Source: Eledone cirrhosa
Taxonomy: Eukaryota
DNA length: 64,000 nt
NCBI GenBank assembly: GCA_964016885.1
Contig: OZ024741.1
Coordinates: 311,984,001 to 312,048,000 of the forward strand
Reading direction: 5' to 3'
In this document: positions 3,831-62,284 of the stretch, in pieces
Layout: each line of letters opens with the position of its first letter
How positions within the stretch are numbered: position 1 is the first letter of the stretch
Position numbers and translations under genes: made by a program
The notes under the pieces: model-generated
What the model saw: only the letters and a program-made list of their open reading frames with translations
Told to the model about the DNA's origin: nothing
Database searches by the model: none

Positions 3831-3909
3831 ATATTATCAAAGAAATTGAGATATTATCCAAATAAACTGAATGTGGATGACGTAAGTAGAAAGAATCCCT
3901 TCAATAAAT

Positions 3910-3980
3910 AATTGTTTCTACTATTGGCACAAGGCCAGAAATTACCCAGTACATTACTGGTACTTTATTTTATCGAATCT
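3910..3980 (-). mobile_element. 3' fragment of the tRNA-derived SINE
   Basis: TTGTTTCTAC..TGGCACAAGGCCAG..ATTACTGGTACTTTATTTTATCGA matches full copies such as 42361-42534. Confidence 0.8.
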
Positions 3981-22793: not shown

Positions 22794-23744
22794 CATAGAA
22801 TTATAAATGAGCGTAAGATAGATCAAGCAATAATATATATGAATTTTATACATATACTTTAAGAATGTGAAAGTAATTATATGTTTTAATGTAAAGATGT
22901 ATAGTATTATGCATAATCTATTATTGCATATGGTTAGTAAAACGGCTCTTTTCAGTTTTAACGTTATCCTCATTAGCTTCAGTGTTGAACATTTGTACAT
23001 CTCTATTCACTATCGTCACTGAAGATATGTCACTATCTTAACACCAATTATTATATTTTATCTCACGAAAGCTTAGTTAAATATTAGTACACTTGAAATA
23101 TGTATAATAAAATAAATAGGGTTTTATAAAGATATTTTCCATTTATTAATATTATTGATATTAATGATACTCCGGATAAATATTGTTGAGTGCTTCTAAT
23201 CTGTCGTAAAATTAACTTTGTTGAATAATAAACGAACCAAATGAATCATTGTTTATATGTATATATATACATATATTTTTCCTTCCTTTACGTTGCTTCA
23301 CCCTTCGTGTCGCTTTACATGCCCCCCCCCCCCCCCCCTTTGTTTCATCCCAATAACTTATTTTAGTTATTGTTCGCCCTAGGCTGGGGTATCTTGTCTC
23401 GAACGCGAAGAAATACCTATGATTCCTAGCAGACAACTGACGATGGATATTTTTTCAAAAAATTCTAATTTACTCCAGAAATAGCCGTCGAGACGGCTTG
23501 AGCTCTGCTGTAGGAGTTTAACATTTATTACCCACTCTACTACCCTAAGTATTGAGTACTCCGGTGCGTTATGGTCCATCTGGTTCCTTACCACACTTCC
23601 TTCGTTATATATATATGTATATATAATGTTTCTACATTTGGAATAAGGCTGCAATTATCTCAGTGCATTACTGGTACTTTACTTTATCGACACCGTAATG
23701 ATGAAAGGCAAAGTTAATAATAATGATGTGACGGACCCAACATA

Positions 23745-23892: not shown

Positions 23893-24458
23893 CCAATGCC
23901 GCAGTAAGGTGCACTGCACCATCCGTCTGCATATATTATGCAACGATGCACAATCGGCTTATGCGGCTTCATCAGCGAGTATCGCCTAATCAATAACCAA
24001 TCGATCGATAGAATCCAAACACCAGCCCATGCCGGTCATGACTGTTTGTGACAACCGACACGGTAAAGCGATTAGCAACTAGCACCCGATACAACTCTAT
24101 CTCTCGACCGGCCACCGATTTACAAATTTTACGTGGTGGCGGGAGACTAGAAAACCAATATTTTGGTTCCCGTCGAAAGCCCTCAGCCAACGTGTCACAC
24201 ACAAACTATTAAGAGCTGAAAAGATGACTATTAGAAATAGCAGTCCACAGTCCATGTATAATAGAATAGTAGCATTCGGCTCATGTCTCCAACTCATATG
24301 GCTAGAGTAAAGCGAGAGTAACAATGGTAGTGCCAATAACCTTTAACAGACTTTAAATGCGATCATACACTATAGAGCAATAGTGTAGCGAGCTGAAATG
24401 TGTCAGCCGCGTGCGTAGATAACCAGTCTATTTCACAACTTAAGAGAGATTCAATAAT

Positions 24459-24630
24459 TGTTTCTACTTTAGGCACAAGGCCAGCAATTACCAGTGCATT
24501 ACTGGTACTTTATTTTATCGACCCCGTAAGGATGAAAGGCAAAGTCAACCTCGGCGGGATTTGAACTCAGATGGTAAAGGGACGTAACTATGCTGGAAAG
24601 CATGGCGTCCGACCCTCTACCGATACTGCC
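24459..24630 (-). mobile_element. Full-length tRNA-derived SINE
   Basis: Minus strand GGCAGTATCGG (A-box-like), GAGTTCAAATCC (B box), tail CCTTGTGCCTAAAGTAGAAACAATTATT. Confidence 0.9.
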
Positions 24631-24702
24631 AATCCACTTCAATAATAGCAGGAAAATAGAGCGCAATATCAAAACAAAAACAATATTGGGAGTTAATAAG
24701 AA

Positions 24703-24876
24703 TTGTTTCTACTTTTGGCACAAGGCCAGCAAAGACTCAGTACATTACTGGTACTTTATTTTATCGACCCCGTAAGGATGTAAGGCAAAGTTAACCTGGA
24801 CGGGATTTGAACTCAGACCGTAAAGGGACATAAATATAGTAGAAAGATTGGCGTCCAACCATGTACCGATACTGCC
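24703..24876 (-). mobile_element. Full-length tRNA-derived SINE
   Basis: Aligns end to end with 24459-24630. Confidence 0.9.
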
Positions 24877-24889
24877 AATAAGGATTTGT

Positions 24890-26689: not shown

Positions 26690-29600
26690 TTTCTTTATTG
26701 GTAACAAGGGCTGACATCAAGAAAAACATTACAGACGGCACAGGACGGCACAGGACGGTACGATGTGGGTTTTGTGCGTGTAAATAATTTTATTATTTAT
26801 ATAAGAAAAGAAAAAGAAAAAGAAAAAGACATAAAACATATATATATATATAAACAATAAAAATGAAAATTGAAACAATGAAAAATTCCCCAAAAAGGGG
26901 GAAACCTCCGAGGGTTACTCGTGGCGAAAACCACACAAAAGACCACGGCCACCCTGACTACCAGAGCAAGCGCCCTCTCTCAACTTTTCGATCTCTCAAA
27001 CTACAGGCGTATATTCAGAGCGGTCCCGTTCACTCGGACCATTCCCACTACATTCACCCACCTTTCAACAAACTTGCTAGAAGGCAGCACTTGCCTCTCT
27101 ACCCTGATTTTCCTCTTCAAGTGAAACTTTAAAAAGTTAAATGGGGATTCGCCGAAGAGGAAAGTGTCTGTCTTTAACCTTTTCAACCTTGTCCACCCCA
27201 CAATCTCTTTCGTCATGGCCACCAGGCAGATGAAAACCGCCTGCCCTTCCTCCTCGAAGGAAGACGGCGAGACCATCTGCACAATGGACTCAGTCGAGAA
27301 CCGGATCAGTCCTACACACGACAGCAACTTTTGGACATAGCTCCACAAGTCAGCAATGCTCGGGCACTAAACGAGTGCGTGCACGACGGTTTCGTCGCTC
27401 TGCGCGCATCTCGCACATGCTTGAAGAGCTTATCTCGAACCCGCAGTGCTCCCCGGTAGCACTGCCAGGCCAGGGATTTTGTGAAGTTATCCATAGGTCC
27501 TGGGCTGAAAGTTCTCTAGAAGAGAGCAAACAGCTGGTCTTCTTCGACGCCCAGGATCTCTACGAGAACGTCGTCGGTCTTCCCCTCCACTAGTCCTCTA
27601 TAGAACGCCGAGGTGGATGTTCTACAGATACTGATGCCCAGCTGGCAGAGGGCAGTGAGCGCCTGGAGATATTCCAGTTTTCAAGCGCTATCCCTCGGTC
27701 TTTTTCTGACCCAGGACTGCAGCTCCGTCAAGGAGACGAGCTGTGGGAAAACGTGCCTGGCTAACGGCGACCACACCTGTTCACCGTCAAGGAAGCACCA
27801 GAGATTTTGCAACCTCAGCGCGTGTTTGCGCATCTTCAGCCATGGCATGCCCAGACCTCCACGCAACGGGTGTTGACAGCAGATGGATCGTCTGACCAAA
27901 GGAGCCCGTCCCTCCCACAAAAAGCGGAAGAGGAGGCCCTCCATTTTGGTGAGAGTTGGGCCGGGGCAAGGGTCGACGGTGAGGCGGTAGCAGATGACGG
28001 ATACAATGTACGCATTCGCCACCTCCGCTCGGTCTTTCAGGGACAGATTCCTCTCGGCCCATTTCTGGGTGAGAGGGGCCACCTTGCTCGTCACCTCGTT
28101 CCAATTTTTCTCCATCTGGAGGTCCGGTCCGAACGAGACCCATGCAATTTAAACGGTCCGTTCATCCAACGCCCCACGACGCTGTCGGACGGCATGGACT
28201 TGCCTCTCCAGGTGCCGAGCTGCGAGCCCACCGACTTTTCCTGTTTTATCTTTGCTCCTGTCACCGCTTCGTATTCCTTGAGAGCGGTGCGAGCATCTGG
28301 ACGCGACTAGTGCTCGACACCACCAAGGTGAATTCGTCGGCGTCAGCCGACTCGGATTTCCCGCATTCTAGTTCGCGTGGGACGCCCCTCATCGCCCCCA
28401 GTTTGTGCAATAACGGCTCGAGGGCCAATACGTACAAGAGGGACGAGAGGATACAACACTGGCGGACTGAGCGCATGATGCTGAACGGCTGAAAACGGGC
28501 CCGAAACCGGCTGCATCGAGGACCGCCGCCAGGACCGATGGTCGACCCTATCGAATGCTTTCGATTGGTCCAAGTTGATCAGGGTCCCACCCGTGCCAGG
28601 TTTCTTAACCACCCTCTCTATGATGTATCGCATGAGGTGTAGGTTGTGTATGGATCTGTCCGTAATGGTGCATGTCTGCGCCTCTCCCACCAGACCCTTG
28701 ACGATAAGCGCCAACCTCGTTGCCAACACCTTGGCCAAAATCTTCAACTCTGCGTTTAGCAGGGTTATGGGCCTGAAATTATCGATAACATCCCCGTTGT
28801 TCGGGGCTTTTCTCAGCAGCGCCACCGCTCTCCGGCTCAAAAAACTGGGAATGCACCCGTTCTGTTGCCAGTTGCAGTAGACGTCTGCCCAGATGTCACA
28901 GAACAGGTCTGGCATAAATGCATAAAGCTCGTAGGGCAGACCATCCAAACCTTGCGAATTACCCCTCGTGCAGTTAGCCATCGCTTCCCATATTTCATCG
29001 GCTGTTATTGTCTTTTCGCAACACTGTGCTGCCGTCATCGAGAGCCGAGGCAGTCCGTCGAATTATGCACTGAAGTCCATGCCCCGATCCGGACCACCGC
29101 TGCTTCCGAACAGTTCAGCAAGGTGCTGCTGAAAATTTCACACATCTTCTCGGGTTCGAGCAATACGCACCCGTTTTGGTCAGACAAAGAGCGAATTGTG
29201 GCTTTGTTACTATGTCGCGCCTCTGCCACCTAGGCCCATTTGACGGCTTTTGTCCCCTCTTGTTTCAGAGCACGCGCTCTAGCTCTGAAAACGCAACCTT
29301 CGTGTTTTGCGTTGAAGAATTGGTCAAGTGCCAATCTCTCCGCAAGCACGTCGGTTATGATGCCTGTCCTAAACGCCTCTTCTAGCTTTCTGACTAGCTC
29401 TCCCTCTACTCTATTTTCCTCTATCACTACTCATTTGCTAAACCTAATCGACTCTACTTTAAATGCCCTTTTCAAGGCGAACCACCACCTGTTGTTGACG
29501 AACGCTCCCGTCAACGCCCGCTTAACTAATACGCTAATCTATTCGATACCTGTCTGACAGTTGAAAACGTCTGAGCAGGTTGGTGATGCTCTTGCACCCT

Positions 29601-31426: not shown

Positions 31427-31450
31427 AACAATAATAATAATAATAATAAT

Positions 31451-31690
31451 TGTTTCTACTTTTGGCACAAGGCCAGTAATAAACCAGTACATTACTTGTA
31501 CTTTATTTTATCGACCCATTAAGGATGAAAGGCAAAGTGAACATCGGCGGGATTTGAACTCAGACCGTAAAGGGACGTAACTATGCTGGAAAATTGTTTT
31601 CTACAATAGGCACAAGGCCAGCAATTAATCCAGGGTATTACTGGTACTTCATTTTATCGACCCCTGTTAGGATGAAAAGCAAAGTTAAAT
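31451..31690 (-). mobile_element. Two tandem 5'-truncated SINE copies (~31451-31592 and ~31593-31690)
   Basis: Match to full copies; B box present in the first. Confidence 0.88.
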
Positions 31691-31832
31691 AGTAATAAAG
31701 AGCTGACATCAAGAAAAACATTACAGACGGCACAGGACGGTACAGGACAGTACGATGTGGGTTTTGTGCGTGTAAAGATGTTTATTATTTATATAAGAAA
31801 AGAAATAAAGACATAGAAATATATATATATAT

Positions 31833-32366
31833 AAACAAATAACGAAACGAAATTAAATTTCGTTTCGTTTGTAACTCACTTTTGTATGACTGACGCTTAA
31901 ACAATTAAGTTAAAAATGTACATCCACATATGTATACTGAAATACTAGTATGCATATGAATACACACACGTGTACATATGTAGATGTACCGAGTTTTTCA
32001 CTGGTCACTTTACTGTGAGTGTCCAGCTATTCTGTATGTAAACACACAGACAAACCGGTTTTTAGAGTCATACTGGTTTTTGAGGAAACACCTTTCCTCT
32101 ATTCTCCAGAAAGCCAGACAAGGAATATTGGACTAGTTTCGATGTTGTTACATCTCATCAGCAATATTTACCTATCTTCCGGCCTTTCTAGAGAATCGTG
32201 AAAGCACATATCGTTATATGCTTTTTCTATGAAAATTAGTAGTGGGCAGACCAATTTGCATAGAGCGTGAGTACGTACCGGTTCAACGGAGACGATAAAA
32301 ACAAATAACGAAACGAAATTAAATTTCGTTTCGTTTGTAACTCACTTTTGTATGACTGACGCTTAA
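31833..32366 (-). mobile_element. Retrozyme-like non-coding insert: one 466-bp unit plus 68-bp terminal redundancy
   Basis: 31833-31900 equals 32299-32366; carries a hammerhead; multiple hairpins; absent from the paralogous 3'UTR at ~26850-26945. Confidence 0.8.
32124..32168 (-). ncRNA. Type I hammerhead ribozyme (canonical core, minimal palindromic stem III)
   Basis: Minus strand AATATTG CTGATGA GATGT AACA ACATC GAAA C TA G TC|CAATATT: 7-bp stem I, CUGAUGA, 5-bp stem II closed by G-C, GAAA, GUC site; predicted cut between 32131 and 32130. Confidence 0.92.
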
Positions 32367-35300
32367 GACCACGGCCAACCTGACCACCAGGGCAAGGGCC
32401 CTCTCTCAATTTTTCCACTTCTCCAACTACAGGCGTATATTCAGAGCGGTCCCGTTCACTCGGAACATTCTCGCTACATTCACCCACATTTCAACAAACT
32501 TGCTAGAAGACAGCACTTGCCTCTCCACTCTGATTTTCCTCTTCAAGTGAAACTTGAAATAGTTAATTGGGGATTCGCCGAAGAGGAAAGGGTCTGTCTT
32601 TAACCCTTTCAAACTTGACCACCACAGAATCTCTTTCACCATGGCCACCAGGCAGATTGAAAACCGCCTGCTCTTCCTCCTCGAAGGAAGACAGCGAGAC
32701 CATCTGCACAATGGACTTAGTCGATAACCGGATCGGTCTTACACGCGACAGCAACTGTTCGACATAGCTCCACAAGTCAGCAATGCTCGGGTACTGAACG
32801 AGTGCGTGCACGACGGTTTCGCCGCTCTGCGAAATTGTTTCAGAGCACGTGCTCTAGCTCTGACAACGCAGCCTTCGTGTTTTGTGTTGATGAATTGGTC
32901 GAGTGCCAATCTCGACGCAAGCACGTCGGTTGCGATGCCTGTTCTAAACGCCTCTTCTGGCTTTCTGACTAGATCTCCCTCTATTCTATTTTCCTCTATC
33001 ACTACTCCTTTGCTAAACCAAATCGACTCTACTTTAAATGCCCTTTTCAGGGCAAACCACCACCTGTTGTTGACGACCGCTCCCGTCAACGCCCGCTTAA
33101 CTAATACGCTAATCCGGTCTCTGTAGGATTTGCGCGCCGGGAAAGACGCGTTCAGCTTCCAGTAACCGGGCCCTTGTCTATGAAGTCTGTCTATGTCGAT
33201 CTCACAGATCACAAATTTGTGGTCTGTGTAGTCGACTATTTTAAATTGTGGACAACTTATACTAGCCTTATCTAGTTTTCTGCAGAATACCCTATCGAGA
33301 TACGATCTGGATGACCCGATACGGTTTATCCATGTCCACATTGGCACATTCGGGTGATCCAGTCGATACCTGTCAGACAGTTGAAAACGTCTGAGCAGGT
33401 TGGTGATGCTCTTGCACCCTCCTCCCCTGTCCTCTAGCCCAACACAATCCCAGCGTGCATTCAAGATACCGTTCCAGTCGCCCACTAACACTAAAGAGCG
33501 GGAGGTTCTCAAAAAGGTCTCTAGACATCTGCAGAAATCTGGCCGTCCTGCCCCTGTTAGGATGTAGACGGCTACTAGCCTGAAAGCATTGCCTTCTCTG
33601 CCGGTCACGTCCAGCACCACCGATGTACTTTCTGGTTCCAGGAAGATGGTCCGTATGGCAAGACCCAAGCCTTTCCGAAACAACACAGCCACTCCGACCC
33701 CCGCTCTCGGACGGCTCGGAGATGCGTACACCTCGTAACCGTCGAAGATCGGTGCGAAAGCTTGCGTTTCGGAAATTCTCGTCTCGCTGATGGCCACCAC
33801 ATCTAGGTTTAGTGACCTGAGATCGTTAAGTTAGGTGGCCCTGCTTCCAAGATGACCCCAGGCCAGGTACATTTATATGAGCTGTTGTAAGTAAGGCCAT
33901 GTTCGGTGAGGAATGGAGTAAGTGAGAAAGGAACATCTACCCTCATCGTATGGGGAGGGGAAAGTTGAACCGTCCCTTTGTCTGGTGATGGGTGTCTCCA
34001 AGATGATGTCGGTATGTATCCTTTTGGTAACTGACCCTCTGAAGTCTCCAACTGCGTTGGGGAATTTTTCTTTTAAATTTTTTTAATGGTCTATTTTAAC
34101 TTCAATAAGGCTTATATATTTCTGGAGAATGTTTCGTGTTGGTGGGGTGTAGTAATTTTTGTTTGTGATGTCTGTGTTCTGCTTTATATGTTCTAAGAGT
34201 TCTTTTTTTGCCAAGATTATGGCTGTGTAATGTTTTTGGGGTGGTTTTGTTTTGCTGCTCTCTTCTTGTTGCTGCTGTTGGGTATGATTGTCTTGTGTTT
34301 GCGATGTTGATGTTTGCGGTGATGCTTGTGGTGGTGGGGTGGTGGTAGTTGGTCGTGATGGTGGTGGCGTTTCTGGGTCTCGCCTTGCAGCCTTTACCCC
34401 TCTTTGTTTGCCTTCGCTGAGGTGGATCTTTAACCCACAGAGATAACATTTTTGCCGTCTTCCTTCCACACTTATATGGAGTTGGAGTCCTTCCTCGTGG
34501 TCTATGATATCGGGGATAGCGATGATACACTTCTGGTCAGTTAGTATAAGCATTTGCATGCCTATACCTGACCAGTTCTCTCTCCCTATTTTCTCTACTG
34601 GCAGCTGGTCGGTCGTCCTATCCTCGCTTCCAGCAAGGACAGACGCGGCCAGCCAAGGTATGGGCACGTCGGATGGGACCTGGGTCACTTGACCCTCACA
34701 ATTTTCTGCCCGCAGTAGGAGGGCAACAAATCTTCTCCTCACTCTTTAGGGTTTCCAAAGAGTGAGATTTCGCGTCTTTGGGGGTAGCGAAATGTACGTC
34801 CACTGTGGCAAACTTTCTGCTCCGGCTGATGTGGGTTTTGTGCGCCCAGACGCACGTTCATGGCCTTTTGGATTTGAGCCTCCGTGGCTCTCTCCACCCG
34901 ATGTGACATTTTGCTTACGGTGCAGTAAGTCACCGTCCGTCGCTGCTGGTTCTTGAAAAACTCGGGTGGATGTTTCAGGGAGACTCTATTGGCGCTTCTT
35001 GTCACCATGGCCCTTGCGACTGCCATCTCCTCTTCTGTGACTAACACTGTCTCGATTATGTCGGGCGACACCTGCAAAAGAAGTGGTCCCTTTTTCAGCA
35101 GCACCACTATTGCTGCTGCTACTGGTCTTACTGGTGGTGCTGAGATCGCTGTTACAGTTATCGATGTCATTGTTGATGTTTAAGTTGGTACAGTTGTTGG
35201 TGTTGTTGTTATTGGTTTCGTTGATACTTTTGCTGTTGTTACTGTTATTGTGGCTGTTGTTATTATTGTTTGTTTTTGTTGATACTGTTCCTACTACTAT

Positions 35301-35844
35301 CGTTGTTGTGGCTGTTGTTATTGTCATTGCTATTGTCGTTCTCGACCTTACCGCTGTTATTTTTGTTGTTGCTGTTGTTAATGATGGTGTTGTTTGTTGG
35401 TGTTATTGTTGCTGTTGTTTGTGTAAGAAATATTTGGTAATTTTAAATCTGTAACAATAACATTAAAAATGATATTGTTCCTCTTTTCCTTCGTAATATT
35501 TTCCTTTATATTTACCTTCGCTAGAACGCTGTCTTGTTGATATGTTGACAAAGTTTCCCTCTCTCTGTGTTGTCTGACAGCACTCTCTCTCTCTTTCTTG
35601 TGTTATCCATGTTGAAAGAAATTTCTTTTTTCAAAATATATTTTTACATAATACGACACCCCGTAAAGGGGTGCCATATTATTTACGAGTGAACCCCTGT
35701 ATTACGTGGGTCACTACTTCTAAACTTTTATCAAGTTTAAAACTTGAATAAAAGGTAAAGAACAGTTGAAAACGAGGTAAACTTTGAAAAAAACGGAAGT
35801 CGATAAGAAACGTGGCTTCCTCTTCAATAATAATAATAATAATT

Positions 35845-36075
35845 TTTTCTGCCTTTGGAACAAGGCCAGCAATTACCAGTGCATTACTGGTACTTTATTT
35901 TATCGACCCCGTAAGGATGAACGACAAAGTTAACGGGATTTGAAATCAGAATAATAATAATAATAATAATTGTTTCTACTTTAGGCACAAGACCAGCAAT
36001 TAACCAGTGTATTACTGGTACTTTATTTTATCGACCCCGTAAGGATGAAAGGCAAAGTTAACCTCGCCGGGATTA
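35845..36075 (-). mobile_element. Two 5'-truncated SINE copies separated by (AAT)n
   Basis: ~35845-35950 and ~35971-36075 match the SINE 3' portion. Confidence 0.88.
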
Positions 36076-36106
36076 ACTTTGCATTTCAATAATAATAATA
36101 ATAATA

Positions 36107-39486: not shown

Positions 39487-42343
39487 AAACGCACATGGTG
39501 GATATATATCGTTATGGAATCGCTCCCGTAAGTTTTTGATTTTTACTTATTTAAAACAACTGTGATAGAATAATTCGTATTACAAATTAAGTATAAGATT
39601 ACATGTTAACGCTCAGCAAGCCATAACGCATCACTTTACGCCATAGGGGCCCAATATTTAATATTTAATTTTGGATCAGAAATGTTATAGTCGAAAAAGA
39701 GAAAATGGCTAAGTGGACAGACAGGTTAATAATTTCACCAACACCACCACCGCCACGATCACCACTACCGCGCCAAAAACTCTAGACAAGTTACCTCAAC
39801 ATCTATTTCTACTTCAACTTCAACACCATCACTACAGTACTACGATCACATCACCACCACCACTGCCTCATTATCGCTACCGCCGCTATTCTCTCCCACT
39901 ACCTCCTGCTAAGTACTACTAGCACAGCACCACCACCACCACCTGCCTCATTATCACCTCCGCCGTTATTCTCTCCCACTACCTCCTGCTAAGACATGCA
40001 TCGTAGTGTCCCCACTAAAAGAGGAAGGCACCAAAAGATATAAATAGACTGATTTGATGACCCGGTCAAAAAATCAAAATAACAAAAATCAAAATCAAAA
40101 CAGCACAGCAACAACGAAAAACGTAAAGAAAAGAAAAATGAAAAGAAAAACAAACAGACAGACAGAGAAGGAAAAAAAACAAAAAAAACTAAGTCAGACA
40201 TTCAAACATTACATTACCATGAAACTTATGCTTATTCTCTTTTTTTTTTTTTTTACCTATTTGTTTGTTTGTTTATTTATGTTCCTCTACAGCGTGATAG
40301 TGTCACACTAAAATCACGGGAGGTGATGAGATCACCGGAGGTGATGAAATCACCGGTGGTTATGTAACCATACATTCACCAATCCTCGATAAGAGTGTTT
40401 CAATGTCGAACCTAAACAGTTCGAATAACGGTGAAGTGGAGACTAGAACGTCATGTGACAGACTCTCACCCAGCAGGTGCTCCCTGGCTCAGCAGTAGGG
40501 ACCTAGCTGTCAACCAAATACTGCTGGTGTCGGAGGAAGAAGAAGAAGGAAAGGGACCAGAACCAACTGGACGAAAGAATTGAATAGAACTATTATGCAA
40601 TGTTACCTGAAGAGTAACCCCAAGGAGAAAGGCTATAGGAAACGGATGCATAACATCTAGAACGAGATTGGTCTACTTAAATTAGATGAACAGAAATTGG
40701 CCGGGCAGGCTCGGGCAATAAGAACTAATGGGTGGATAAGCGAGCTGGAACTGGAGGAACGGAGCAGAGAGATTAGCTTGGAAATGGAGAGTGGAGTATG
40801 CCAGGCAAACGAGTCAGTGGGAAATGAAGGTGAAGAGGTCGAGAGAACGGAGGAACCACCCGAAACAGACAATGATCTGAATGCTGAGATAAATAATACC
40901 TGGAACAGAGATACGGCCACTGAGGAGATGAATGCTGACGGGCTAGGACAAGATTTGGTAGATATCCTAAACTTAGTGGTAGATGAATTGAACAATAATA
41001 GTGGGAAACCTATGAACCTCAGATTTGTAGACAGGAAAAAGTTAAAAGAAACAACAGCTAAGGTAAACAAAGTCATCCCTTACCATGAGGCGAGGAGCCT
41101 TCACCAGTGCAACAATATCCTCAAAGCAACAGCAAATGCGGTGAGGAAATTACTTGGCATAAAAGCGAGAGGAAACAACAAACAAGAAAGATCAGAACCT
41201 TGGTGGAAGAAACGACTTAATGGTCAAATTAGGGAAATGAGAAATGACATTGGAAAGCTTGAGTCCCTACTGAATGGGACACTAAAAACATAGACACTAA
41301 AAATAGACTGGAAATAAAGTACAAAACTAGGAGGAAAAAGCTAAATATTATAATAGAGGAACTGAAGCAACGCATTGTAGCAAGGAGTGCAAAGATTAGG
41401 CGATACGAGAGCAGAGTCAGTCAGTATAGACAGAACCGCATGTTTGAGAACAACCAGAAGATGCTGTTTGGACAGCTTGAAGGGAAAGAAAGAGGCAACG
41501 ACTTGATTCCTGAGGCGGAATAAACTAAGACATTCTGGAGAGGAATATGGGAGAAAACTGAATTCAGAGATCCACAGACATGGAACTGGTTGAAAAGAGG
41601 AGACCTTAAAAAGGCTACAGAAGGAATGTTAATGGCTGCGCAAGAGCAGGCCCTCAAAACGAAGTGGTTGAAACACCATATTTACAAGGAGGAGGCTAGA
41701 CCACTGTGCAGGATCTATGGAGAGAGAGAGGAGACTGTGGCTCACATTGTATCTGAGTGTAAACAGCTAGCCCAGACTCACTATAAGGGCTGGAGACAGG
41801 ATGTGTTGGGCAGGGTGATCCACTGGTACCTATGCAAAGTAAACAATTTACCACATTCTGAGAAATGGTATAGTGGCCAGAGTCGGTGATAGAAAACGAT
41901 CAGGTGAAGGTGCTGTGGGATTTTAGGATACAGACGGACAAGAAACTGGAACACAATAGACCTGACCTGGTGGTTTTGGACAAGGAAAAAAGATCGTGCC
42001 AGATTGTGGATGTGGCCTGCCCATTCAACACGAGAGTGCAAGAGAAGGAGAGGGAGAAAATTAACCGATACCAGGACTTAAAGTGGGAGGTAAAAAGGAT
42101 TTGGAACTGCCATTAAGTCAAAGTGGTCCCGATTGTCATAGGCACACTAGGTACTATCTCAAAAGGTTTCCAGTGATGGTTAAAGAAAATTGGCCCCTTC
42201 ACGCTTTTTGGAACGCTTCAAAAGGCATGCTTGCTGGGAACAGCAAGAACCATCCGATACGTCCTGAATATCTGAGGCTGCAGGTAGAGGCTTGATATTC
42301 ATTTCAACAAACTTTCCAGTTAACTAACTGAGACTCAAAGAAC
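39487..42343 (+). mobile_element. R4/Dong-type LINE family 1, copy 2: long 5' region, RT removed by an internal deletion
   Basis: ~40185-41552 matches copy 1, then jumps to the post-RT region; complete RLE end and 3'UTR; assigning 39487-40185 to the 5'UTR is inferred. Confidence 0.88.
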
Positions 42344-42360
42344 AATAATAATAACAATAA

Positions 42361-42534
42361 TTGTTTCTACTTTTGGCACAAGGCCAGCAATTACCCAGTG
42401 CATTACTGGTACTTTATTTTATCGACCCCGTAAGGATGAAAGGCAAAGTCAACCTCGGCGGGATTTGAACTCAGATCGTAAAGGGACGTAACTATGCTGG
42501 AAAGCATGGCGTCCGACCCTCTACCGATGCTGCC
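42361..42534 (-). mobile_element. Full-length tRNA-derived SINE inside (AAT)n
   Basis: GGCAGCATCGG A-box-like, GAGTTCAAATCC B box, (ATT)n tail; AAT repeats on both sides. Confidence 0.92.
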
Positions 42535-42554
42535 AATAATAATAATAATAATAA

Positions 42555-60099: not shown

Positions 60100-61625
60100 G
60101 CGCTCTTTCTTTTCTTATTGTTGTTGTTGATAGTGGGAGAGTAAGTGATAGGTTGTGAGAAGCCGCTGTTAGCTAACGCCGTGTTATAGTAGGGTGCCGC
60201 CCTGTCAAAGATAGCCTTATTAGAGGAGAGGACTTCCACACTGGAATATACCGCGACGATGGACTGAAGTTATCGAGCCATAAAACTGGTCACGACCTCG
60301 ACCGGTTTAAAAAAGACTTAACTTCAACCTTCAATGTGTTAGGACTTAGGATAACAGTAGCTACCAACCTCTCTAGCGTAGAGTTCTTAGACATTACTTT
60401 AGACCTTCGCACACACACACACACATACCCTTCCATAAGCTAAACGAAAATCTCAATTACATTCACAAGGACTCATGCCACCCTCCCACTGTTTTTAGAA
60501 ACATCGTAAATAATATCAGTACTTGAATCTCAAACCTCTCCTCTAATAAGACTATTTTTGACAGGGCGGCACCCTACTATAACACGGCGTTAGCTAACAG
60601 CGGCTTCTCACAACCTATCACTTACTCTCCCAATATCAGCAACAGCAATAAAAAAAGAAAGCGCAACGATAGACAAACTATCTGGTTCTGTCCTTCCTTC
60701 TCACTCAACGTTAAAACCAATGTAGGCAAACAATTTCTAGCCCCCTTAGATAGACACTTTCCCATAGGTCATAAATACCGCTCTATCTTTAACCGACACA
60801 CAGTAAAACTAGGATACTCCTGCGCTAAGAACATGAAGGCCCACATCACCAGCAGCCTTAGGAGCAACGCCCCACCAGCGTGCTCTTGCCGTAAGCCCGA
60901 AGCTTGCTTCCTTCAACAGCAATGCAACAGACCAGCTGTAATTTATGAAGCTGTGGTCACTTCCAACCGACCAAACCAACCACAGGACGTCAAATCCTAT
61001 GAGAGCATGGCGGAGGGCCAATCTAAGGAACGTTTCCTGAACCATCAGTCGACCTTTAGGTACCCGGAAATACGTTCATCCACGAAACTCGCGAGCCACG
61101 TATGGGGCCTCAAGGACTCAAGTATAGACTACTCCATTCAATGGAAAGCCATCAGTAAGTCCAAGCCAGACGCAAGGGGAAATCCGTCGTGTGGACTATG
61201 TATTGACGAACGAATAAATATTCTAAAGAGATTATGCAATAGTGATTGCCTAAACACGAGAAATGAATTCTTCATAAGTTGTCCACATGTCTCGAAACAC
61301 GTATTGCATAACTACAAGGCTCCGGATTGAATGAATTATTGTAACAGCATCAATATTCTTTCTTATCAACTAAAAACTCTTCGGACTTTGACACTTATTT
61401 CCCTTACACCTCTCGCACGCAATTTAGTATTGCCTGTGTGAAGTGACGGCTTTCTGCACATGCGGGTTCGTAGGTTGTCCGTCCTGTTCCGTATAACCAT
61501 GCCCATTACGAGCTTAGGATCCGCTAAGGTGAAACAATTGATCTCGGTATGGTGAACTAACTGTTGTGTAACCACTTCTACCTAACTCGTCCCATGGACT
61601 GTGTGTTCCACCACTACGGATATTA
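60100..61625 (+). mobile_element. 5'-truncated Penelope-like element (RT C-terminus plus GIY-YIG-type endonuclease) with an inverted 5' segment
   Basis: GIYRDDGL, VEFLDITLDL, IWFCP.FS..VKTNVGK.FL, YSC, CSC..C..C, VIY..Y(ES) degenerate GIY-YIG, KERF.NH, C.LC, LN.R.E..CPH; 60100-60231 is the reverse complement of 60535-60664. Confidence 0.9.
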
Positions 61626-62284
61626 CCTTCCAGTGTTCAACCACTATATATATATATATATATATATAGTTATATTTGGGGAGGGTCATATTTGCGTAAT
61701 ATTGCCAGAATTAATAACAGAACACACTCACTGTTTGGTTGGTTTTCGCTTCTCGCTGTCTTTTATATCTGCGATCTAACTTACTCGGTCCTCAATGTTG
61801 CCATTGACTGACCGACGGTCAAAAATAATACAGATACAATATAGGCACAAACACATATATATAGTTTACATAATTTACATAAATCTTTCGTTGCACATCT
61901 GCAACATCGTCAGTGCTGTTATATTCATTGTTCCTCCTGTTGTGTTGTATGTCTACGCCATTTTTTTGTTCAGTCTGTCTATATATTTATTTATTTATTT
62001 GCTTGTTTGTTTATCTTATTTTATTTTGTCTTCTTTGCGCATGCGTTTGCGTGTGTGTATAGTGTTATGTGTGATGTGTGACTAGTGTGTATAGTGTTGT
62101 GTCTGCTGGGTGACTAGTGTGTGTTTATGTGCTTGTTGTTATTGTGCTTGTGTATGTATTTATTTATCTTATTTTATTTTATTTTATTTACTTATTTATA
62201 CTTCTCTTAGGTCAGTGTTGTTTGTTTGGGTGTTGTTGTTGTTCCACTCATTCTTTCTGTTTAGCTGTGAGTGTGACAATAGGA

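What the first reader, a model, noticed from the sequence alone, without database searches (positions are those of the whole stretch)
31841..32270. The ribozyme-bearing unit is tiled by consecutive stem-loops
Seen: palindrome AACGAAACGAAATT-A-AATTTCGTTTCGTT (31841-31869); 31918-31937 pairs with 31970-31989 (18 of 20); CTGGTCACT/AGTGTCCAG; TCTGTATGT/ACACACAGA; GAGGAAA/TTTCCTC (32082-32099); an extension of hammerhead helix I (32101-32115 with ~32181-32196); TCTATGAAAATT/AATTTGCATAGA (32226-32264). Inference: selection on a branched, viroid-like RNA fold rather than random filler DNA; the bulged helix I extension could supply the loop I-II tertiary contact.
Basis: partly seen in the sequence, partly recalled or inferred. 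Interest (0 to 1): 0.7.

Follow-up and report, generated by a model that had tools for sequence, protein, structure and literature searches.

The report
Hammerhead retrozyme with selected RNA fold
This is one copy of a 466-base non-coding repeat with a predicted self-cutting RNA motif, found about 9,000 times in this animal genome; differences between copies spare its predicted stem-loops, so the fold is likely under selection as RNA, and it likely spreads by borrowing the enzymes of Penelope-type jumping genes, as a new member of a known class.

Summary
All seven stems listed are in the sequence, but the RNA is the minus strand. That strand carries a type I hammerhead (Rfam HH9, E 2.3e-8, below the gathering score) and folds better (z about -10 to -11 against -6 to -7). 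The 466-bp unit has 9,274 ribozyme matches genome-wide. Substitutions inherited across insertions break 15 predicted pairs against 30.3±3.4 expected (0 of 5,000 permutations); private ones break them at the chance rate (109 against 111). Fully compensatory pairs are few (3-5). Copies sit in (TA)n with two fixed 3' ends about 70 nt apart; 15 of 17 two-armed insertions use one of each, the Penelope 'tail' signature. Verdict: a metazoan non-LTR retrozyme, likely mobilised by Penelope-like elements. The loop I-II contact more likely uses the bulge at 32169-32170 than the distal extension. 'Viroid-like' holds for shape only. Expression, cleavage and circularity are untested, and no autonomous parent was found. 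This scan has reported the same kind of element many times in this genome.

The parts
31829..32366 (-). Whole insertion: one arm of 538 bp = one 466-bp unit plus 72 bp of the next; one ribozyme only
   Evidence: L001; repeat 31829-31900 = 32295-32366 at 98.6%
31833..32298 (-). 466-nt monomer (period of the tandem arrays elsewhere in the genome)
   Evidence: 465-466-bp spacing; joint 32298 to 31833, goes back 466
31820..31833 (.). (TA)7 target microsatellite joined to the RNA 3' end
   Evidence: same junction type in other copies
31829..31834 (-). 3' end site 1 (inferred reverse-transcription start), used by this copy
31841..31869 (-). 14-bp 'tail' hairpin between the two end sites (second copy 32307-32335); family B has a hairpin of different sequence at the same place
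   Evidence: p 0.95; 99.7% of cells paired
31874..31891 (-). Tail-side strands of two long-range helices (31874-79 with 32267-72; 31884-91 with 32066-73); invariant in 28 of 28 aligned copies, so no covariation either way
   Evidence: (helices 2, 10)
31898..31903 (-). 3' end site 2 (inferred second reverse-transcription start), used by other copies
   Evidence: loose TA ends at 31898 and 31903
31918..31989 (-). Long AT-rich stem with inner hairpin 31948-31967; (TA)n-expanded in families B and C
32001..32026 (-). 9-bp stem, 2 compensatory pairs; its A-A mismatch becomes A-U in 8 of 28 copies
32031..32050 (-). Hairpin (TCTGTATGT/ACACACAGA on +)
32082..32099 (-). 7-bp hairpin, one compensatory A-U to G-C pair (2 of 28 copies)
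32101..32196 (-). Hammerhead with extended helix I (distal extension 32101-32119 with 32177-32196; one pair seen as A-U 11, G-U 9, G-C 8)
32124..32168 (-). Type I hammerhead core: helix I 32162-68/32124-30, CUGAUGA 32161-32155, helix II 32154-32141 (A-U to U-A in 8 of 28), GAAA 32140-37, 2-bp palindromic helix III 32137-32132; predicted cut after GUC, between 32131 and 32130
32169..32172 (-). GGUA with the UA bulge of helix I; likely partner of loop II (inferred)
32201..32224 (-).
32226..32264 (-). Bulged stem; inherited A-to-G changes turn A-U into G-U
32367..33830 (-). Host: degraded LINE with an AP-endonuclease frame (Tx1/L1-type label recalled), whose 3' (TA)n region the element interrupts; about 86 bp present in the paralogue at 26853-26938 are missing here (target deletion inferred)
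   Evidence: (PF03372)

Best explanation
This is a solo copy of a non-coding tandem-repeat family whose minus strand carries a hammerhead motif, likely a non-LTR retrozyme with a fold likely selected at the RNA stage and likely copied into (TA)n repeats by a Penelope-like reverse transcriptase. Shown: the unit, its copy number, tandem and inverted arrays, TA targets, two fixed 3' ends, and pair-sparing variation. Inferred steps: arrays are transcribed as multimers; neighbouring hammerheads, whose 2-bp palindromic helix III would pair as a dimer, cut out 466-nt monomers that a host ligase may circularise; the branched fold keeps the ribozyme unblocked and presents the tail domain; a GIY-YIG/RT protein nicks both strands of a (TA)n run and starts cDNA at site 1 from one end and site 2 from the other, running past the cleavage site. 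This copy was primed at site 1, ran 538 nt and was joined to the LINE with loss of about 86 bp. With one ribozyme it could not itself release a monomer.
For: Hammerhead: HH9 match on the minus strand, 38.9 bits, E 2.3e-8; core intact; N17 is A, C or U in 76 of 76 variants, never G, and helices I and II covary between families A, B and C. Copy number 9,274 against 0 for the reversed pattern; 40,282 against 1 with sister families. Selection on the fold: 73 inherited substitutions give 15 broken pairs against 30.3±3.4 (0 of 5,000); 226 private ones give 109 against 111.2±6.1; the plus-strand structure gives 19 against 25.6 (p 0.03). Compensatory pairs in helix II, the helix I extension, 32082-99 and 32001-26. 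Ends: in 26 insertions from the first listed places on contig C1, 41 of 43 arm 3' ends fall at site 1 or 2; 15 of 17 two-armed insertions use one of each and none uses one site twice; 1 of 43 5' ends lies within 5 nt of the cleavage site, as chance predicts. An RT/GIY-YIG family in the same genome (Atlas neighbours carry HTH_animal, RVT_1 and GIY-YIG) also ends in microsatellite, mostly (TA)n, at two sites about 66 nt apart in 29 of 30 copies. PMC11167929 shows two internal RT start sites bounding the PLE tail, and cutting and extension of both strands. Keeping the ribozyme core unpaired costs only 1.5 kcal/mol.
Against: No direct evidence of transcription, cleavage or circles. The HH9 score is below the gathering threshold of 52. 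Fully compensatory pairs are few: 3 of 152 on the window's MFE structure, a count reached by 65 of 500 shuffles, and 5 of 147 in RNAalifold; 359 of 479 columns are invariant. The structure was predicted from one family member. No autonomous element with a homologous terminal repeat turned up in 30 loci of one PLE family, 30 loci with variant ribozyme spacing or the 3' region of a second PLE family (best scores lie in TA-rich low-complexity stretches). The tail here is about 70 nt, against 30-40 bp in PMC8557442 and PMC11167929. In vitro, 8 of 9 Xenopus retrozyme dimers did not cleave (10.64898/2026.07.22.740005), and the anole PLE ribozyme was not needed for insertion. Two of 17 two-armed insertions break the two-site rule (L085, L172).
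Confidence: 0.85

Rival explanations
1. Same element, but the template is an uncleaved linear multimeric transcript. The ribozyme is a passenger or rarely active, and no circle is needed.
For: 5' ends do not pile up at the cleavage site (1 of 43), which fits either template. PLE ribozyme mutants still insert in vitro, and unprocessed RNA was the main substrate. Source arrays of 30 or more units exist. Older arrays are internally heterogeneous.
Against: The ribozyme core, N17 and both contact loops are conserved across three families. Very young insertions have arms of up to 17 identical units on both sides (7+12, 5+2, 17+8), which needs an 8-kb transcript with 17 uncut ribozymes.
Confidence: 0.35
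2. Satellite DNA whose palindromes act as DNA (hairpins, cruciforms, slippage), spread by recombination; the RNA fold is incidental.
For: Most stems can form on both strands; the long stem is microsatellite-like; background tiles reach z -7.6; older arrays show local duplication of variants.
Against: 17 of 21 pair-keeping inherited changes are one-sided changes to or from G-U on the ribozyme strand. Ends are fixed on one side and scattered on the other, with strand polarity. Copies are dispersed over many contigs at 98-100% identity.
Confidence: 0.05
3. An endogenised viroid-like agent that replicates RNA to RNA, with genomic copies as by-products.
For: Size, branched fold with 66% of bases paired, and a hammerhead. 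Two public runs of unrecorded kind, labelled as other organisms, hold a single closed 466-period contig at low depth (X4, X5).
Against: No ribozyme on the opposite polarity. Thousands of genomic copies in at least three related families, with PLE-type ends. A closed contig also arises from tandem DNA, and no run is on record as RNA.
Confidence: 0.04

Closest known systems
Metazoan non-LTR retrozymes (Cervera and de la Pena 2020, PMC7229834, parts 2-4 of 6 read; Li, Clavereau and Pollet 2026, 10.64898/2026.07.22.740005, parts 1-3 of 5 read)
   Same: Non-coding tandem repeat of a few hundred bp, GC under 50%, one type I hammerhead per unit with a short palindromic helix III, thousands of copies from solo to multimer, highly paired predicted circle with the ribozyme unblocked, coexistence with PLEs.
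   Different: 466 nt is slightly above the 150-450 bp of the 2020 paper and within the 51-972 bp of the 2026 preprint. The parts read do not describe two-armed inverted insertions, two fixed ends, (TA)n targeting or a substitution test of the fold. Expression and cleavage are shown there and untested here.
Penelope-like elements, endonuclease-positive (Craig et al. 2021, PMC8557442, passages seen; Frangieh et al. 2024, PMC11167929, parts 1-2 of 4 read)
   Same: Tandem and inverted 5'-truncated copies, a tail present at one end only, microsatellite targets, a hammerhead near the terminal repeat, a stem-loop near the start sites.
   Different: No ORF; tail about 70 nt instead of 30-40 bp; the hammerhead keeps helix III and the candidate loop-loop contact, whereas PLE ribozymes are usually minimal (PMC6155905 passage); no sequence homology to a PLE terminal repeat was found.
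Hammerhead viroids and viroid-like satellite RNAs (recalled; PMC6155905 passages)
   Same: Size range, branched fold, hammerhead with a weak helix III that would work as a dimer, as in ASBVd and newt satellite 2.
   Different: Genome-encoded, with a ribozyme on one polarity only and retrotransposition marks; nothing shows RNA-to-RNA replication.

Membership tests
Metazoan non-LTR retrozyme | Short tandem-repeat unit of a few hundred bp, low GC, no protein | tested here: met
   465-470-bp units in arrays; GC 36% (base counts); no ORF of 150 aa or more over the unit
Metazoan non-LTR retrozyme | One type I hammerhead per unit, with intact core and NUH triplet | tested here: met
   (E 2.3e-8, though below gathering); core as listed in PMC3088659
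Metazoan non-LTR retrozyme | Dispersed multi-copy, solo to multimer | tested here: met
   9,274 matches; arrays of 30 or more units and solo copies
Metazoan non-LTR retrozyme | Highly self-paired predicted circular RNA with the ribozyme unblocked | tested here: met
Metazoan non-LTR retrozyme | 'Active' copy = at least two consecutive ribozyme-bearing units (2026 preprint) | tested here: not met
   This copy has 1.15 units and one ribozyme, so it is a solo derivative; the family meets the test at other loci
Metazoan non-LTR retrozyme | Expressed, self-cleaved and circularised in vivo | not testable with these tools
   needs strand-specific RNA and bench assays
Penelope-like element insertion | Tandem/inverted 5'-truncated arms with a tail at one end, microsatellite target | tested here: met
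   15 of 17 two-armed insertions; 41 of 43 3' ends at two sites
Penelope-like element (autonomous) | RT plus GIY-YIG ORF | tested here: not met
   no such ORF in the unit or attached to it in the loci examined
Non-autonomous derivative of a particular PLE | Sequence homology to the terminal repeat of an autonomous PLE | tested here: inconclusive
   none in two PLE families examined; the genome holds more families than were sampled
Hammerhead viroid / viroid-like replicon | Ribozymes on both polarities and no genomic DNA phase (recalled) | tested here: not met
   one polarity only; thousands of DNA copies

The most novel reading that the evidence does not exclude
The unit is a 466-nt RNA circle whose whole branched fold, not only the ribozyme, is a selected substrate. 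A Penelope-type enzyme enters it at two fixed internal sites that bracket a conserved hairpin domain and copies it round and round from both ends of a cut (TA)n. The family's thousands of natural variants are then a ready-made mutational scan of what such an enzyme needs in a template.
Probability: 0.4. Interest if true: 0.65.

Novelty: new member of a known kind. Interest (0 to 1): 0.4.

Why it matters
Retrozyme circles are described as highly self-paired from folding predictions (PMC7229834). Here the contrast between inherited and private substitutions gives evolutionary evidence that the pairing matters on the ribozyme strand, including helices outside the ribozyme. Together with the two fixed ends, this makes the proposed but unshown step, that PLE enzymes copy retrozyme RNA, testable with a defined template, defined start sites and a (TA)n target. 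The class itself is known, and this scan has reported sister families and probably this family in the same genome, which limits surprise.

Tried and rejected
Rfam at gathering scores over the whole window: 0 matches; the sraA and microRNA hits at the E-value threshold are generic AT-rich hairpins far below gathering. RNA runs: no RNA holder listed, which says nothing on expression; four runs of unrecorded kind were laid as contigs. Single edited-circle test: a triple A-to-G variant in all 18 sampled units of both arms of one insertion looked private, but occurs 70 times at 7 loci, and all complete units in four of those insertions are identical in substitutions, so it does not separate a circle from a long transcript. 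A-to-I editing signature: private A>G 24 against T>C 14, 30 against 16, with no neighbour preference; suggestive at most and not claimed. Search for the autonomous parent: searches found none. Pfam and PDB sequence searches did not recognise the PLE frame; only the Atlas look-alikes did. An LTR/TRIM reading of the 72-bp terminal repeat was rejected, because 5' ends vary from copy to copy. Look-up of earlier notes by sequence: nothing. Literature: searches with retrozyme/hammerhead/octopus, Penelope-like/hammerhead/non-autonomous/microsatellite (14), cephalopod/hammerhead ribozyme/retrotransposon (57) and retrozyme/covariation/compensatory/secondary structure/selection (66) listed no paper on this family or on covariation in retrozymes; only top listings were seen. 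Supplements of the preprint and of PMC7229834 were not seen and may list related families.

Full report
Observation. The stems lie in a 466-bp unit (31833-32298) followed by 72 bp of a second copy ending at 32366. The only hammerhead in the unit is on the minus strand. It matches Rfam Hammerhead_HH9 at 32108-32179 with 38.9 bits, E 2.3e-8, below the gathering score of 52 (one search gave nothing at gathering). The minus strand folds at z -11.4 linear and -10.2 circular, the plus strand at -5.9 and -7.0. The signal survives block-wise shuffling (-11.0) and removal of the ribozyme or the AT-rich stem. Fifty background tiles in this window average -2.1 and reach -7.6, and one subfamily scores better on the plus strand, so folding energy alone would not settle the question.

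Family. The window lies in a 3.0-Gb animal genome (G000). Near-identical units (98-100%) occur on many contigs, solo and in head-to-tail arrays. An exact ribozyme pattern for this family has 9,274 matches against 0 for the reversed pattern. A looser pattern has 40,282 against 1 and brings in sister families B (about 422 nt) and C (about 484 nt and longer), which have the same order of parts and weak sequence likeness. Family A itself has subfamilies down to 88% identity.

Is the fold selected? I mapped 54 stretches of family A (51 insertions after merging split arrays; about 30 were picked for likeness to the window, the rest are first-listed places on contig C1) to the unit. Substitutions were split into 73 seen in two or more insertions (inherited through active lineages) and 226 seen in one (for the mapping). 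On the minus-strand structure predicted from the window copy, inherited changes left 37 at unpaired sites, 21 pair-keeping and 15 pair-breaking, against 30.3±3.4 breaks when the same changes are dealt to random sites with the same base (0 of 5,000). Private changes broke 109 against 111.2±6.1. Fisher's test on kept against broken gave p 2e-4. On the plus-strand structure the deficit was weaker (19 against 25.6, p 0.03). Of the 21 pair-keeping changes, 17 are one-sided moves to or from G-U on the ribozyme strand. On 28 aligned copies (28 chosen from 277 redundant full-length hits, about one per insertion), fully compensatory pairs number 3 of 152 on the MFE structure (65 of 500 shuffles reach that count; 18 cells, 0 of 500) and 5 of 147 in RNAalifold. 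They fall in helix II, the helix I extension, 32082-32099 and 32001-32026. Limits: related sequences, few independent events, a structure taken from one member, and a private set swollen by one old array and probably by sequencing errors.

The ribozyme. Helix I has 7 bp, then a UA bulge at 32170-32169, then further pairs; helix II has 5 bp; helix III is 2 bp within the palindrome ACUAGU; the predicted cut is between 32131 and 32130. Across 76 distinct ribozyme variants from families A, B and C, helices I and II change in step, N17 is A, C or U and never G, loop II is UAAYAA in 69, and GGUA sits 8-11 nt before the core in 55. The HH9 model puts its internal loop at that bulge, and PMC3088659 (passages) describes the contact as loop II with an internal or terminal loop of stem I. 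The proximal bulge, not the distal extension, is therefore the likely partner. Dimeric cleavage through the palindromic helix III is inferred from newt, axolotl and mosquito cases (PMC7229834, PMC6155905, PMC3088659). Keeping the core free costs 1.5 kcal/mol, matching the unblocked ribozymes reported for metazoan retrozymes.

How copies are made. In 26 insertions from the first-listed places on contig C1, 41 of 43 arm 3' ends lie at site 1 (about 31829-34) or site 2 (31898-903), almost all joined to (TA)n. Of 17 two-armed inverted insertions, 15 use one site at each outer end and none uses the same site twice; L085 and L172 are the exceptions. The 5' ends are scattered, with 1 of 43 near the cleavage site. 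Family B shows the same two-site pattern. A family of RT/GIY-YIG elements, with a fragment at window 60232-61650, ends at two sites about 66 nt apart in 29 of 30 copies. This is the PLE tail, which PMC11167929 traced to two internal start sites with both target strands cut and extended; PMC8557442 describes the tandem/inverted structure and microsatellite bias (passages). The window copy was primed at site 1 in a (TA)7 at the 3' region of a degraded LINE, ran 538 nt across the cleavage site, and rejoined the LINE about 86 bp further on, judged from a paralogue. With one ribozyme it is a solo derivative.

What is not shown. No listed run is on record as RNA, so expression, cleavage and circles are untested. 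Long arms exist at birth: a very young sub-lineage has 7+12, 5+2 and 17+8 units without substitutions. But the same sequence is shared across insertions, so a circle and a long uncut transcript both fit. An editing signature is weak. No autonomous parent was found by sequence.

Comparison and verdict. The element meets the sequence-level features of metazoan non-LTR retrozymes, and its insertions meet the PLE pattern that PMC7229834 and preprint 10.64898/2026.07.22.740005 propose as the mobiliser. It fails the two-polarity feature of hammerhead viroids (recalled). I had reached the retrozyme/PLE reading before the look-up (note); earlier notes of this scan report the same kind of element at many places in this genome. 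New member of a known kind; interest 0.4.

Noticed in passing
window 60102-61650: 5'-truncated Penelope-like fragment (+ strand, RT end plus GIY-YIG-like frame 60527-61330) with a 130-bp inverted 5' piece and a (TA)n junction. The family is very abundant (72,302 first-look candidates) and has two 3' ends about 66 nt apart. Its 3' region has a hammerhead-like GAAACAATTG without a canonical CUGANGA.
   Followed up: partly
L005:2395-3354, L020:1-1350, L061, L068: Family B and family A insertions, and PLE copies, are often nested in each other's (TA)n tails; families B and C together outnumber A about 3 to 1.
   Followed up: partly
window 32364-32366: The 5' end of this copy coincides with the second-copy position of site 2. 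It may be chance or AA microhomology with the LINE, or a stop at the second start site.
   Followed up: no
G000:C1:95.64-95.68 Mb (L146-L153): Old family-A3 array with a 6-unit (2,817-bp) higher-order period and some core-mutated ribozymes (CTGATGA to ATGATGA): a retrozyme turning into satellite DNA.
   Followed up: partly
G000:C1:30.83M, C1:322.55M, C6:54.09M, C18:30.95M, C1:85.3M, C410, C744: Very young sub-lineage marked by three A-to-G changes within 6 nt of one stem, all turning A-U into G-U; 70 units at 7 loci. Possibly a fixed editing event.
   Followed up: partly
L161-L163, L165-L167, L170: Scattered single-copy minimal hammerhead-like motifs (CTGATGAA...GAAACTAGT) with unrelated flanks, in excess of the reversed control; possibly old PLE terminal repeats.
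   Followed up: no
window 61870-61920 (-): Second hammerhead-like motif, CTGACGA-TGTTGCA/TGCAAC-GAAA, outside any unit of this family.
   Followed up: no
L184:1950-4260 (-), L010:2344-3470, L088: A second PLE family (about 29% amino-acid identity to the window's) with a 3' region of about 1 kb ending in (TA)n; it shares only a short AT-rich motif with family B.
   Followed up: partly
window 3904-3976, 23620-23720, 24450-24880, 31430-31690, 35825-36100, 42340-42540: A short interspersed repeat of about 70-190 bp starting at (AAT)n, nine or more copies at 82-98% identity, two of them just left of the finding.
   Followed up: no
runs X4, X5: Two public runs labelled as other organisms each hold one closed 466-period contig of this unit at low depth; run kind not recorded.
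   Followed up: no
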